Shown one piece after another: positions 27,265 through 41,986 of a stretch of 64,000 nucleotides of DNA; within the stretch, counting starts at the first letter, position 1; the number at the start of each line of letters is the position of its first letter. The stretch is from an uncultured bacterium (GTDB lineage: Bacteria; Spirochaetota; UBA4802; JAGODF01), in the NCBI GenBank assembly GCA_937921485.1, contig CAKZSV010000012.1:75688-139687 (forward strand), written 5' to 3'. Below the pieces are notes generated by a model, which saw nothing but the letters and a program-made list of their open reading frames with translations, did not search any database and was not told the origin of the DNA. The translations under genes and the position numbers were made by a program.

Positions 27265-27311
27265 GAAAGGGCTCTGACCCTACTGAAGAAAAGGTGCAAT
27301 GGCTCTGACCC
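27265..27311 (+). repeat. Two REP-like motifs GG(G)CTCTGACCC downstream of the RAYT gene
   Basis: GAAAGGGCTCTGACCC at 27265-27280 and GGCTCTGACCC at 27301-27311. Confidence 0.8.
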
Positions 27312-27569
27312 TTCTTTCTGACCAATGAGGGAAACTCAATACACCTGGTATCACTATTGGAAAAATTGAAAAAGATGGTTGAACTAAATTTCTTAGAAAG
27401 AATTCGATTTGAGGATAAAATGGCTAACAGGTGAAGGCAATTTTTAAGGCGTATTCGGATCTGTACGCTTTTGGAATGAATTGATAATTACGAGGAATTG
27501 TAGTGAAAACCTCGTACAATTGATAAATAGCAGGTATAACGATATGAATTAGGAATGAATTTTTTAATG

Positions 27570-28166
27570 TTATATCCAATCGATAATGGAATATCGTTTT
27601 CGATATAGTTCCTCGTAATGAAGAAATCGTTTCAATCGCTCCTTAAAAGTTTCACCTAAGTTTAAGAAAAAATCGTGATAATCTATTGGCACTTCTATAT
27701 TCGGATTTCCCTCGACATAGGCTCTGATACTGCTATATGAATAGTTTAAAGGATTTGAGCATAATCTTTTTCGAACTGGATTAAACGCAAGATACCACAA
27801 AAGCCAAAGTAAATAATGACACGCATCTTTCGCAAATTGAACAATGCTGTCTTTGTACCTCCCGTTCCAGAATGGCCCCGTTCGTTTCACAATTTTGTTA
27901 TAAAGCTCCGCGAATCGAGATTTGATATACTGCACAATTCTTGAGATGGATGTTCCACCTGGCAGAGTGTGAATAATAAGGTGAATGTGGTTGGGCATGA
28001 TGCAGTACGCAATAAGCTTAAAGTGATATTTTTGTTTGCTTCTGCGCAAAATTTCAAGAAAACACTCTTTGAAATAATCTTCTCCAATCATGTCGCGCCA
28101 TTCGATGCATTGAGAAACGATATGATAAGTTAGGTCGGGTTGTTGAATTCGATTTGGGCGTGGCAT
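27570..28166 (-). mobile_element. HUH/Y1 transposase-like protein, REP-associated tyrosine transposase (RAYT/TnpA-REP) type
   Basis: 'MPRPNR', 'YHIV', 'AYCIMPNHIHL' (HUH), 'TGPFWNGRY', 'NPVR' and 'YSSIRAY'; AT-rich and flanked by short repeats. Confidence 0.88.
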
Positions 28167-28241
28167 GTTATTCCTCCAAATAAGATTTCTTTTCCCTCAC
28201 CTATTAATACGCAAAATTTCGTAAAAAAATAAATTTTTTTT

Positions 28242-28351
28242 GGGGGTCAGAGCTTTTTTTGTAGTTTTTTTCTATGTCGAGTATGTGGGGTCAAAGCCAT
28301 AGCTTATAAAATACTGTTAGTCGAAAGGGCGAAAGGGCTTTGACCCCACAT
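28242..28351. repeat. Three REP-like motifs upstream of the RAYT gene, including a 16-bp inverted pair
   Basis: GGGGGTCAGAGC at 28242-28253. ATGTGGGGTCAAAGCC (28283-28298) pairs perfectly with GGCTTTGACCCCACAT (28336-28351), with a 37-nt loop. Confidence 0.85.
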
Positions 28352-28497
28352 TGCTTGAAAATCCTCCTGTTTAGCTATATATTCTTTTTATGATGGAAAT
28401 TAATCCCGATGAAGATACGATAAACACTGAGAAAACTCAATGAACAGGAGAATTAAATAGAATTTGACGATGTGGTGAATCCAGGTGTATTGGAGGC

Positions 28498-40095: not shown

Positions 40096-40212
40096 AGAGT
40101 TTTTATTTTTACAGATGATTGGACGGTTACGAGTCATAGCTCCAACGGCGCGGGCTGAGTCGCCGCCAACGGAATGTTGTGAAGTGCAAGGGCGTAGCTT
40201 TAGCAATAACCG

Positions 40213-40731
40213 CTACCAGCGACAGCCGATGCCGGCATTTATGCTATCGTATGCTCTAAAATATTTCCAAAGCCTCTCAAAATAAATTGAAAATATTATT
40301 CTGCTTTCATCTCTCATCAGACTGAGGCAGCAGCTTTCGGAGTTCATTTTATAAAATCCGACATCGCATCCAATAACAATAAAATCATTGTACAACCCGC
40401 GTCTCTCGTTAAGGTTAATATCACCAAATCCAGTAAAAAGCCTTATCATTAGATTATTTGTTTCATAGATTCTTATTCCAATATCCACCCTTGTTTCAAG
40501 TGCCACCAATATTGCAAATGGATTTACATTAACGATTGCATCGATATAATAAAATTGCAATCCTATTCCAAAGTATGCATTAGCACGACTATTGTTATGC
40601 TCTTCATCATCAAAAGTATATTTTGGACCAATGTAAACACTCCGCCATATTGAATTTTCATACCCCTCTGCATTAAGAAATGAAAAAAAAATGAACATCA
40701 AACCTGCCACAATTTCTATAATGTACCTCAT
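40213..40731 (-). CDS. Hypothetical exported protein, possibly a small OM beta-barrel
   Basis: Signal peptide, aromatic/Gly alternating strands, C-terminal W; starts 6 nt after the PLA2-like gene; AT-rich. Confidence 0.55.
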   Translation of the reverse strand: MRYIIEIVAGLMFIFFSFLNAEGYENSIWRSVYIGPKYTFDDEEHNNSRANAYFGIGLQFYYIDAIVNVNPFAILVALETRVDIGIRIYETNNLMIRLFTGFGDINLNERRGLYNDFIVIGCDVGFYKMNSESCCLSLMRDESRIIFSIYFERLWKYFRAYDSINAGIGCRW

Positions 40732-40737
40732 GGATGT

Positions 40738-41786
40738 TTACCTGCAATTGATGTAACTCAGATACGGATACCAGATTTGATCATCCTCCCATGATCCTCC
40801 GCCAAAAATATCCACAAACGTATAAAATGCATTTGCCCATCCTTTGCACCATGCCTCGCGCGGGTCCCACATATAACATATTTTGATCTTTTTAAAGCCG
40901 AGCTTTATCCTGACATACCTCATACATGAACGGTAGTGGTCATCGCATGCAGCAAACATATCGTTCTTGAAACGCCGGTCACAATCATGCCTGCTGAATC
41001 CGTATGTGGCACTGCCATGGACATAGCACTCGTCATGGCAATTACAGGGACGGTGGAGAGCACCGCTTAACTCATCTGGTAGGCTGAAATTTATTCCACC
41101 AATTTTCGGTCCGCAGCCATTGGTGTGCTCCATCCCTCGTCTCGGCATGATTTTTACATCGTCTCCACCGCACGATCCCTGTTCCTCCGCTCCGTCCCCG
41201 CCGCCGGTCGCGGTCTCCTCTTCCGAGGTTTCAAAGTAGCCGCAGTCAGTTTCCACGTTGTTTTCGGAAACGTCGAAGGACTCAACACGCTCAAAGAGCG
41301 TCGTTGATTCGCTCACCGTGGAGTTTTCGCCACTCCTATCGACTATCGCCTTCCTCAGCGTGAGATTGGCCCCCTCGACCGTATAGCCTATCTCGTAGGG
41401 CTCCGCGCCCGCGTTCAGGATTGAGAAGGTGTTCCCATCTGCAGTATACGAAAGATCGACCTTCCCGCAATACCGGTACCGCGCATCCCCGGACGCCTTT
41501 ACGTAAAATTTACCCACTCCCCTGGAAAGACGCAACACTACCGTGAACTCAGATCCCGTTCCCTCAGCAGCATCCTCCGGATCTTCGATATGCACCTGCT
41601 CACCGTTCAGGGTGAACGACAGGTCTGTCTTTTTAAGGAGCCAGGTACCATCCACGGGAGTGCTTTCACCCGGGCTGCCGCTCGGCCGGGTCAGTTGATC
41701 GATGATTTGAGTGATGTCACACTGCGTAAGTAACACAGCCATCAAGAGAGAGAGAGAGAGAAGCTGGAACGTAGTATTTTACTCAT
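40738..41786 (-). CDS. Lipoprotein with a C-terminal secreted phospholipase A2-like domain; signal peptide frameshifted at a (CT)8 tract
   Basis: GGAG...ATG at 41786 gives MSKILRSSFSLSLS*. One CT fewer gives MSKILRSSFSLSLLMAVLLTQC, in frame with ORF 40738..41745. The C-terminus has 'NGCG...CNCHDECY...CDRRF...C'. Confidence 0.75.
41745..41760. repeat. Dinucleotide microsatellite (AG)8/(CT)8 inside a signal-peptide coding region
   Basis: Directly visible as AGAGAGAGAGAGAGAG. Confidence 0.95.
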
Positions 41787-41974
41787 TTCCTGTCTCCGTT
41801 GTTGATTATTGTTGGACGACAATGTCATGCATTGTGCGGGGCGCTTTATATTTGTCAAGAAAAAAAATGACCACTCCTGCTGCATCACCCATTGCTCTGC
41901 CGCGCTGAGTTAATCTGCACTGCTCAAAAGCTTGCTACTCATGTGTGTTATATTAGAGCGATAAATTTATTACA

Positions 41975-41986
41975 GGGGTCAAAGCC
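41975..41986 (-). repeat. Copy of the RAYT-associated motif
   Basis: GGGGTCAAAGCC, identical to 28287-28298. Confidence 0.65.

What the first reader, a model, noticed from the sequence alone, without database searches (positions are those of the whole stretch)
27265..41986. RAYT motif spreads over a 15-kb accessory region, including in-frame copies inside genes, and brackets cargo
Seen: about 11 copies (27269, 27301, 28242, 28287, 28335, 28790, 32799, 32837, 34189, 37229, 41975), all within 27.2-42.0 kb, with none found by eye in the other ~49 kb. A 12-mer like this is expected well under once per window by chance. The copy inside the KamA-like gene (28786-28805, encoding RALTP) matches the reverse complement of intergenic 32796-32815 at 19/20 nt, bracketing the first metal ABC operon. 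The copy in the OM barrel gene (34187-34200, EALTP) is 14/14 the inverse of 32837-32850. Inference: the HUH enzyme may seed or use these sites for local recombination, inversion or capture of cargo (metal uptake, TA, PLA2), with some sites domesticated into coding sequence. This is a candidate under-described HUH-repeat plasticity system.
Basis: partly seen in the sequence, partly recalled or inferred. Interest (0 to 1): 0.8.

Follow-up and report, generated by a model that had tools for sequence, protein, structure and literature searches.

The report
Transposase-linked DNA word around RAYT gene
A 12-base DNA word that flanks a domesticated single-strand-DNA transposase (RAYT) gene in this uncultured Leptospira-like spirochaete is also written, by base substitution and without changing protein length, into several neighbouring genes; this local "halo" is real, but the idea that it captures or inverts cargo genes is not supported.

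Summary
There are 11 copies of GGCTYTGACCCC at 27.27-41.99 kb and none elsewhere in the window, against 0.28 expected. The word is the cognate repeat of a RAYT/TIRYT-type Y1 transposase family. Five intact paralogues in this genome each carry two copies upstream and two inverted copies downstream. Across 31 related genomes, the word is abundant (6-128 copies) in 20 of the 21 that have the gene, and at background (0-1) in the 10 that lack it.

The window cluster is a genuine local excess: 8 of 31 solo copies lie within 15 kb of a RAYT gene, against 1.1 expected, and six of those are here. A second halo surrounds the RAYT gene of another genus.

In-gene copies are not insertions. All seven tested align without gaps to homologues that lack the word. 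Codon-level enrichment is about 60-fold.

Cargo capture or inversion is not supported, because gene order is conserved in the sister species. Synteny breaks do fall at or near three copies. In the sister species, an unrelated multi-copy repeat is joined at the C|T inside the word.

This is a new variant of the TIRtron/REPtron kind. How the word gets written into genes is unknown.

The parts
27270..27312 (+). Direct doublet of the word (GGCTCTGACCCT twice, 31 nt apart) on the 3' side of the RAYT gene. It forms the downstream terminal inverted repeat.
   Evidence: The same doublet position is seen at all five paralogous loci.
27570..28166 (-). RAYT/TIRYT-type Y1 (HUH) transposase gene, 198 aa, with the HUH motif (HIH) and the catalytic Tyr (GRYKD) intact.
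   Evidence: Pfam Y1_Tnp 1.8e-15. NCBIfam REP-associated tyrosine transposase scores 81.2 bits against a cut-off of 80, whereas the IS200 model scores 39.6 against 55. Paralogue alignment.
28243..28298 (-). Upstream doublet (AGCTCTGACCCC and GGCTTTGACCCC), inverted relative to the downstream doublet.
28283..28351 (.). REPIN-like hairpin made by the 28287 copy and an extra inverted copy at 28336-28347, with a 16-bp stem.
   Evidence: DNA fold -18.9 kcal/mol, z = -5.2.
28791..28802 (+). Exact word inside the KamA-family radical SAM gene (28498-30273), read as A-L-T-P. It is of the substitution type, not an insertion.
   Evidence: Five homologues that cover this position have L[SK][PD] at the same columns with no gap. 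The closest full-length one (76% identical) reads CCTGCACTCTCCCCC. In sister species G001, homology with the window breaks exactly at CTC|TGACCCC.
32799..32848 (-). Orphan direct doublet, 38 nt apart, in the spacer between the first Zn-ABC operon and a small His/Cys-rich ORF.
   Evidence: The first copy is shared with G001. In G002 the homologous place reads AGCAATTAGATAC with no indel. The second copy lies in a ~24-nt stretch absent from G002 and different in G001.
34189..34200 (+). Exact word inside the outer-membrane barrel gene (33935-35119), read as A-L-T-P.
   Evidence: G001 has the same DNA. G002 has EAITP (GAAGCAATAACGCC), G003 has DALTP (GATGCGTTAACGCC) and G010 has SAITE. There is no gap, so the word is produced by codon choice.
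37229..37240 (+). T-variant GGCTTTGACCCC inside the ABC-3 permease gene, read as G-F-D-P.
   Evidence: It is conserved in G001 and G003. By my recollection FDP is a conserved motif of this transporter family, so this copy may be partly coincidental.
41975..41986 (-). T-variant copy just upstream of the chemoreceptor gene promoter, at the right edge of the HEPN-NT/PLA2-like cassette that G002 and G003 lack.
   Evidence: Homology with G003 resumes directly after the copy, and G003 has a degenerate GGGGATCGGAGC there.

Best explanation
GGCTYTGACCCC (reverse complement GGGGTCARAGCC, usually preceded by two purines) is the cognate DNA word of a RAYT/TIRYT-type Y1 HUH transposase family of Leptospirales.

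Shown:
- Each RAYT gene sits between two direct copies upstream and two inverted copies downstream. This is a TIRtron/REPtron layout.
- The five paralogues are intact and diverged. At least one is at the same locus in the sister species, which suggests vertical inheritance.
- The word is abundant only in genomes that have the gene family.
- Besides the gene flanks, the word occurs as orphan doublets, in ~66-bp intergenic tandem arrays, and as single exact copies inside ordinary genes.
- The single in-gene copies replace homologous sequence without any change in length.
- They are concentrated next to some RAYT genes, including this one.

Inferred:
- The enzyme, acting preferentially in cis on single-stranded DNA near its own gene, creates or preserves exact copies of its word at sites that already resemble it. 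Orphan doublets would be relics of RAYT gene ends.
- The likely chemistry is cleavage at a C|T inside the word (GGCTC|TGACCCC) followed by strand transfer, as shown in vitro for TnpA-REP. A junction at exactly that position exists in the sister species.

Not shown: the step that turns a near-match into an exact word without an indel.

The system marks and destabilises the neighbourhood, since breaks and insertions occur at copies. There is no sign that it captures or inverts the genes between copies.
For: - Architecture: five paralogues (74-88% aa identity) each have 2+2 inverted copies and a conserved promoter-like leader. The same flanks occur in other Spirochaetota MAGs down to 46% aa identity.
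- Family: the NCBIfam RAYT model is passed and the IS200 model failed.
- Phyletic link: there are 6-128 exact copies in 20 of 21 genomes with the gene, and 0-1 in all 10 without. The reversed-word control gives 0-1 everywhere. Fisher p = 2.5e-7.
- Excess: 52 exact copies in the genome against 0.5 expected, while one-mismatch copies are barely above background.
- Halo: 8 of 31 solo copies lie within 15 kb of a RAYT gene against 1.08 expected, matched in 0 of 20,000 permutations. A second halo in G007 has 11 exact 11-mers in 20 kb around its RAYT gene against 0.87 expected for matches with up to one mismatch (15 such matches observed). Some of these lie inside UbiE, MqnC and HI0933-like genes.
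- In-gene copies: 22 in ORFs of at least 200 aa against 0.35 expected from peptide and codon usage; for example, 6 of 11 GSDP peptides are spelled GGC-TCT-GAC-CCC. Seven of seven tested copies align to homologues without a gap.
- Orthologous RAYT locus next to the thiolase gene in G000 and G001.
- C|T junction in G001, matching the C|T cleavage of TnpA-REP in vitro (PMC8266576).
- The word fits the GGGGWSAS consensus of TIRtron repeats (PMC3733652).
Against: - Only one of the five RAYT genes in this genome has a strong halo. Seven full RAYT loci of isolate Uz-U4-13, and three G001 loci fetched with 3-kb flanks, show only the immediate flanking copies. G005 shows no halo. G007 also has clusters far from an intact RAYT gene. 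Proximity is therefore neither necessary nor sufficient.
- The link between enzyme and in-gene copies is correlative. No known HUH chemistry overwrites 12 nt without an indel.
- The word has little self-complementarity beyond GG..CC (mean stem 3.5 against 3.24 in the control), unlike substrates of characterised Y1 enzymes.
- There is no strand bias relative to GC skew (11 against 20, p = 0.15), which a lagging-strand mechanism might predict.
- The T-variant copies at GFDP and GSKP sites may be coincidental.
- All genomes are fragmented MAGs, so distances to unplaced RAYT genes are unknown.
Confidence: 0.7

Rival explanations
1. The word is a host-level signal, such as a binding site, an uptake- or Chi-like sequence, or a small structural hairpin, maintained by selection or drive independently of the RAYT. 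On this view, the RAYT elements merely target or carry it, much as some IS elements target REPs.
For: Exact copies are kept while one-mismatch copies are at background. In-gene copies arise by substitution, as DNA uptake sequences do. G007 has 128 copies with only one or two RAYT genes, and clusters away from them. In G001 a different repeat inserts into the word.
Against: Density is only about one per 60 kb, far below any uptake or polar signal. There is no strand bias. Genomes without the RAYT family have 0-1 copies even within the same family (G006). Every RAYT gene carries the fixed 2+2 layout at conserved distances. G019 has six diverged RAYT genes and no copy of this word, as expected if gene and word co-evolve.
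Confidence: 0.12
2. One reading: pairs of inverted copies act as recombination sites, so that the HUH enzyme inverts, excises or captures the intervening cargo (metal uptake operons, toxin-antitoxin, PLA2).
For: Inverted 19/20 and 14/14 matches bracket the first ABC operon and the spacer. The region right of murA is not syntenic in G002 and G003. The HEPN-NT/PLA2 cassette is absent from G002 and G003, and its right edge abuts the 41975 copy. G001 contig C63, which corresponds to window 28.8-39.3 kb, ends on both sides in the same repeat.
Against: Gene order and orientation from 28.8 to 39.3 kb are identical in G001. The extended flanks behind the 19/20 match are ancestral sequence also present in genomes without the word, so they are not copied ends. 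The left edge of the cassette has no copy. Y1 enzymes act on one strand and do not invert duplex segments. The metal operons are ordinary conserved genes present in all four congeners.
Confidence: 0.06
3. The cluster is a passive relic. The region repeatedly hosted RAYT genes or arrays whose ends were left behind, or it was imported from a word-rich donor. No cis-acting writing would then be involved.
For: The 32799/32837 doublet has the spacing of RAYT-flank doublets (31-50 nt), and its second copy lies in a ~24-nt indel. The region is variable among congeners.
Against: The in-gene copies are gap-free substitutions at conserved residues, not leftovers of an inserted end. No genome has a word density near one per 2 kb. 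Base composition of 28-38 kb is ordinary.
Confidence: 0.1

Closest known systems
TIRtrons / TIRYT genes (Di Nocera, De Gregorio & Rocco 2013, PMC3733652)
   Same: A RAYT-like Y1 transposase gene is flanked by terminal inverted repeats that are not classical REPs. Many such repeats share GGGGWSAS, and here the inverted word begins GGGGTCAG. The repeats sometimes occur as dimers or small families elsewhere in the genome.
   Different: Here the repeat core is only 12-14 nt. It occurs as direct doublets on each side. It forms ~66-bp tandem arrays, is enriched about 60-fold inside genes by substitution, and forms a 15-kb halo next to one gene copy. None of this is described in that paper.
REPtrons: REP/BIME or REPIN populations with their RAYT (TnpA-REP), in E. 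coli, Pseudomonas, Stenotrophomonas and Marinomonas (PMC2817692, PMC3116915, PMC5581495, PMC8266576)
   Same: A domesticated, vertically inherited Y1 enzyme is flanked by its cognate repeat in inverted orientation. The repeat is amplified well beyond the gene copy number. There are several diverged paralogues per genome, as in Group 3. Cleavage at C|T is plausible.
   Different: There is no GTAG tag and no 20-40-nt palindrome. Nearly half of the solo copies lie inside genes. Copies are locally clustered rather than dispersed in extragenic space. Copy number is low (tens).
Intragenic REPs and Rickettsia palindromic elements (PMC3733652)
   Same: Repeat copies lie in frame inside functional genes.
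   Different: Those are insertions that add about 20-50 residues. Here no residue is added, and the word overwrites homologous codons.
DNA uptake sequences in coding regions (Haemophilus USS, Neisseria DUS; from my own knowledge)
   Same: An exact short word accumulates inside genes by point substitution, at peptide sites compatible with it.
   Different: Uptake sequences occur about once per kb genome-wide and depend on the competence machinery. This word occurs about once per 60 kb, tracks a transposase gene and is locally clustered.
IS elements that insert into REPs (for example ISPpu9 in Pseudomonas putida, PMC8450116)
   Same: In sister species G001 a multi-copy repeat is joined to the word at one fixed position.
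   Different: The interior of the G001 repeat is unknown. The junction lies at a C|T, as expected for HUH chemistry.

Membership tests
RAYT (REP-associated tyrosine transposase, NCBIfam NF047646) | The protein passes the curated RAYT model rather than the IS200 TnpA model. | tested here: met
   81.2 bits against a cut-off of 80 (a narrow pass). The IS200 model scores 39.6 against 55.
RAYT (REP-associated tyrosine transposase, NCBIfam NF047646) | HUH motif and catalytic tyrosine are present. | tested here: met
   H-I/M-H-L and G-R-Y-K-D are conserved in all five paralogues.
RAYT (REP-associated tyrosine transposase, NCBIfam NF047646) | No near-identical duplicates, and the same locus in related species (domesticated behaviour). 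| tested here: met
   Paralogues are at most 88% identical. The RAYT gene next to the thiolase gene is shared by G000 C80 and G001 C72.
TIRtron / TIRYT | The gene is flanked by inverted repeats at similar distances on both sides. | tested here: met
   Two copies upstream and two inverted copies downstream at all five loci and in other genomes.
TIRtron / TIRYT | The repeat shares the GGGGWSAS consensus. | tested here: met
   GGGGTCAG fits for the C-variant. The T-variant GGGGTCAA departs at the last base.
REPtron / classical REP | The repeat is a 20-40-nt imperfect palindrome with a conserved GTAG (or similar) tag. | tested here: not met
   The conserved part is 12-14 nt with no GTAG. Stems extend barely beyond GG/CC (3.5 against 3.24 in the control, position matrix).
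REPtron / classical REP | Copies are extragenic. | tested here: not met
   22 exact copies lie in ORFs of at least 200 aa. At least 12 solo copies lie well inside long ORFs recognisable by sequence as ordinary genes, and two of these were confirmed against solved structures.
REPIN | The mobile unit is two inverted REPs that form a long hairpin. | tested here: inconclusive
   One such hairpin lies at 28283-28351. Other copies are singles or direct doublets.
IS200/IS605 insertion sequence | IS200-type TnpA and multiple near-identical element copies. | tested here: not met
   The IS200 model is below its cut-off. The closest paralogues are 88% identical. In some relatives (G022, G027) the family is multi-copy.
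DNA uptake sequence | High genome-wide density (about one per kb) independent of any transposase gene. | tested here: not met
   52 copies in 3.15 Mb. The word is absent from relatives that lack the RAYT family.
   Order and orientation are the same in G001 over 28.8-39.3 kb. Only single-sided coincidences occur at 27.27, 28.79 and 41.98 kb.

The most novel reading that the evidence does not exclude
A domesticated Y1/HUH enzyme writes its own 12-nt recognition word into DNA around its gene. It would convert near-matching sequence, including codons of working genes, into the exact word by short-patch replacement or strongly biased repair, with no change in length. This would be a cis-acting molecular drive that is neither transposition nor classical gene conversion. 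It would create a local field of nicking or recombination sites that later serve as breakpoints and as landing sites for other mobile DNA.
Probability: 0.25. Interest if true: 0.85.

Novelty: new variant of a known kind. Interest (0 to 1): 0.6.

Why it matters
REP/RAYT systems are treated as extragenic hairpin repeats spread by an unknown transposition-like process. Here the repeat is a short linear word. It enters genes by substitution, stays exact, and piles up next to some copies of its enzyme gene.

If the enzyme is responsible, this would be a new way for a domesticated transposase to edit its host chromosome. It would also give a handle on the long-open question of how RAYT-associated repeats disseminate.

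In practice, the word marks fragile points of these genomes. Contig breaks, cassette edges and insertions of other repeats fall on it. It could also be mistaken for a protein motif (GSDP, ALTP, GSEP, GVRA) in annotation.

Tried and rejected
- Chance or composition: rejected.
- Protein-level selection for the peptides: rejected, because the excess is in codon spelling.
- In-frame insertion (ALTP as an insert): rejected by gap-free alignments.
- Classical hairpin REP: stems barely exceed the control.
- Known RNA family in 26.5-43 kb: none.
- Replication-strand bias: not significant.
- Imported island: composition is ordinary except for a lower-GC stretch at 38-42 kb.
- Tandem arrays as coding repeats: the periods of 65-67 nt are not multiples of three and the arrays lie between genes.
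- Interior of the G001 multi-copy repeat: all 21 matches lie at contig ends. Two metagenome scans found nothing, and nothing similar exists in this genome.
- Whether G001 has the window's RAYT gene: its murA flank and the first 97 codons of the radical SAM gene are missing from that assembly.
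Full report
**Observation.** None lies in the other 49 kb of the window. Dinucleotide shuffles expect 0.28. The 19/20 and 14/14 inverted matches are as stated. The gene calls are sound:
- a 198-aa Y1 transposase at 27570-28166 on the minus strand;
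- a KamA-family radical SAM gene;
- two ZnuA-type metal ABC operons;
- an unannotated outer-membrane barrel;
- a lipid kinase;
- a HEPN-nucleotidyltransferase protein;
- a PLA2G12-like lipoprotein.

**What the word is.** The window lies in a 3.15-Mb, 84-contig MAG of an uncultured Leptospira-like spirochaete.
- The genome holds 52 exact 12-mers against about 0.5 expected. One-mismatch copies (36 against 19) and two-mismatch copies are near background.
- The 66 copies of the 11-mer core fall into three classes: 17 flank RAYT genes, 18 sit in intergenic tandem arrays of 65-67-bp units that often end contigs, and 31 are solo.
- There are five RAYT paralogues (74-88% aa identity, all with HUH and the catalytic Tyr) plus one distant homologue.
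- Aligning the five loci shows one architecture: two direct copies 31-63 nt apart, an A-rich tract and a conserved promoter-like leader upstream, and two inverted copies 250-300 nt downstream.
- The protein passes NCBI's RAYT model narrowly (81.2 against 80 bits) and fails the IS200 model.

**Link between gene and word.**
- RAYT homologues fetched from other Spirochaetota MAGs, down to 46% identity, carry the same word at the same flanks. Homologues from other phyla do not.
- I searched 31 genomes of the order for both gene and word. All 10 genomes without the gene family have 0-1 copies. Of the 21 with it, 20 have 6-128 copies. The reversed-word control gives 0-1 everywhere. Fisher p = 2.5e-7 and Spearman rho = 0.64, with the caveat that the genomes are phylogenetically non-independent.
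- The exception, G019, has six RAYT genes at 39-46% identity and no copy, as expected if diverged enzymes use other words.
- One RAYT gene lies next to the same thiolase gene in this genome and its sister species. Together with the lack of near-identical paralogues, this suggests vertical inheritance, as for domesticated RAYTs (PMC5581495).

**The local halo.**
- Eight of 31 solo copies lie within 15 kb of a RAYT gene, against 1.08 expected. None of 20,000 permutations reached that value.
- Six of the eight are the window copies, all on the 5' side of the gene.
- The other four RAYT genes of this genome have zero or one nearby solo copy.
- In G007, a different genus with a RAYT 48% identical, a 20-kb stretch around the gene has 11 exact 11-mers. 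Fifteen matches with up to one mismatch were found there against 0.87 expected. Some lie inside UbiE, MqnC-like and HI0933-like genes.
- Seven full RAYT loci of isolate Uz-U4-13, three G001 loci fetched with 3-kb flanks, and G005 show flanking copies only. G007 also has clusters away from its RAYT gene.
- Halos are therefore real but occur at a minority of loci.

**In-gene copies.**
- About half of the solo copies lie in long ORFs, in all five stop-free frames: GSDP, ALTP, GVRA, GSEP, GQS.
- Given how often these peptides occur and the genome's codon usage, 0.35 exact words are expected in ORFs of at least 200 aa. Twenty-two are found. For example, 6 of 11 GSDP peptides are spelled GGC-TCT-GAC-CCC, although two of those lie in an ORF extension over an array.
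- None of the seven copies tested is an insertion:
  - radical SAM: RALTP against PALSP, DTLSP, DELSP and EDLKP;
  - barrel: EALTP against EAITP, DALTP and SAITE, with the word produced by synonymous codons;
  - two sites in G007 MqnC;
  - CysK and thiolase against solved structures;
  - the intergenic copy at 32799, which is also gap-free against G002.
- The window's in-gene copies are shared with sister species G001 but absent from G002, G003, G006 and G010. They were therefore gained in the G000/G001 lineage.
- The permease copy (GFDP) is a T-variant at what I recall as a conserved transporter motif, and may be partly coincidental.

**Cargo and rearrangement.**
- G001 contig C63 is collinear with window 28.8-39.3 kb, with copies at the homologous places. 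No inversion or capture of the first ABC operon is seen.
- The neighbourhood is nevertheless variable:
  - G002 and G003 have murA-flgG but neither a RAYT nor the radical SAM gene beside them.
  - G002 goes straight from the permease to the 522-aa gene.
  - G003 lacks the HEPN-NT/PLA2 cassette.
  - Homology with G003 resumes directly after the 41975 copy, while the left edge of the cassette has no copy.
- In G001, homology in the radical SAM gene stops exactly at CTC|TGACCCC.
  - The preceding 45 nt are identical at 21 or more contig ends of that assembly.
  - What follows TGACCCC at those ends is what follows full copies here, such as array units and the radical SAM gene.
  - A G001-specific multi-copy repeat is therefore joined inside the word at a C|T. 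TnpA-REP enzymes cut at C|T in vitro and join the incoming 3'-OH to the T (PMC8266576).
  - Its interior could not be recovered.

**Structure.**
- The word has only GG..CC(CC) self-complementarity. Stem extension into the flanks barely exceeds a shuffled control.
- Positions -1 and -2 are purine-rich, and position +12 is C or T.
- One REPIN-like 16-bp-stem hairpin is formed by two inverted copies upstream of the window's RAYT gene.
- No Rfam family matches, and there is no replication-strand bias.

**Comparison with what is known.**
- The closest description is the TIRtron. This is a RAYT-like (TIRYT) gene flanked by inverted repeats that share GGGGWSAS (PMC3733652), and the inverted word begins GGGGTCAG.
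- The system works like a REPtron but fails two defining REP features, the palindrome with its tag and the extragenic location.
- Known intragenic REPs and RPEs are insertions of 20-50 residues. These copies are not.
- Substitution-type accumulation of an exact word in genes is otherwise known for DNA uptake sequences (my own knowledge), which differ in density and in their link to competence.
- Earlier notes of this scan report the same pattern (a RAYT-linked GGGGWCAGAGC-type word, a local halo, in-gene substitution) in other spirochaete genomes. I treated these as leads. My tests here reach the same description independently. A later check recorded there also found that most RAYT genes lack a halo, which agrees.

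**Verdict.**
- The link to the HUH enzyme and the local seeding are supported.
- Domesticated insertions and cargo capture or inversion are not supported.
- The mechanism that writes exact copies without indels is unknown. I put about 25% on an enzyme-dependent short-patch writing process.

Noticed in passing
Genome contigs outside the window: C80 1371-1806 and 4087-4415; C13 69327-74609; C24 29242-29610; starts of C9 and C75: Intergenic tandem arrays of 65-67-bp units. Each unit carries a small hairpin whose loop is either the word (GGGG-CTCTGA-CCCC) or variants (GGAG-CACACA-CTCC, GGGG-CACTCA-CCCC). The arrays flank paralogous ~790-aa genes and often end contigs. They resemble BIME-like arrays.
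   Followed up: partly
L026 (G001 C63) 1-52 and 10889-10943; L028 1-52; L119-L126: In the sister species, at least 21 contig ends finish in the identical sequence ...CTCAAGTTTTGCCCTTTAATGGG followed by TGACCCC (15 exact, 6 variants). Both ends of the contig that matches window 28.8-39.3 kb carry it. The repeat is absent from G000, G002 and G003, and its interior is not in the assembly.
   Followed up: partly
window 38557-41986: The HEPN-nucleotidyltransferase gene, about 0.9 kb without a convincing ORF, and the PLA2G12-like lipoprotein with its partner form a lower-GC cassette (0.42-0.45). It sits between the lipid kinase and the chemoreceptor gene. The cassette is absent from G002 and G003.
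   Followed up: partly
window 41745-41765: A (GA/CT)8-9 dinucleotide run lies at the 5' end of the PLA2-like gene. Another first-stage note reads it as a possible phase-variation switch.
   Followed up: no
window 32901-33292: A small His/Cys-rich ORF (MSYFPVHNITF...) sits upstream of the barrel operon and is conserved in G002. It may be metal-related. The longer ORF call starting at 32792 runs over the orphan doublet and is probably too long.
   Followed up: no
window 25886-27220: The murA ORF as listed has a 22-codon N-terminal extension. Homologues in G002 and G003 start at MDYY, which puts the start at 27154. Synteny with those genomes ends there.
   Followed up: yes
Genome contig C68 20903-21400: A sixth, distant RAYT homologue (43% identical) has no copy of this word on its contig and presumably uses another repeat. 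G019 likewise has six RAYT homologues and zero copies of the word.
   Followed up: no
L127 (G007 C4 12001-32000): A second halo. Left of the RAYT gene, all exact copies are on the minus strand. Right of it, most are on the plus strand. The orientation flip across the gene is not seen in the window.
   Followed up: partly
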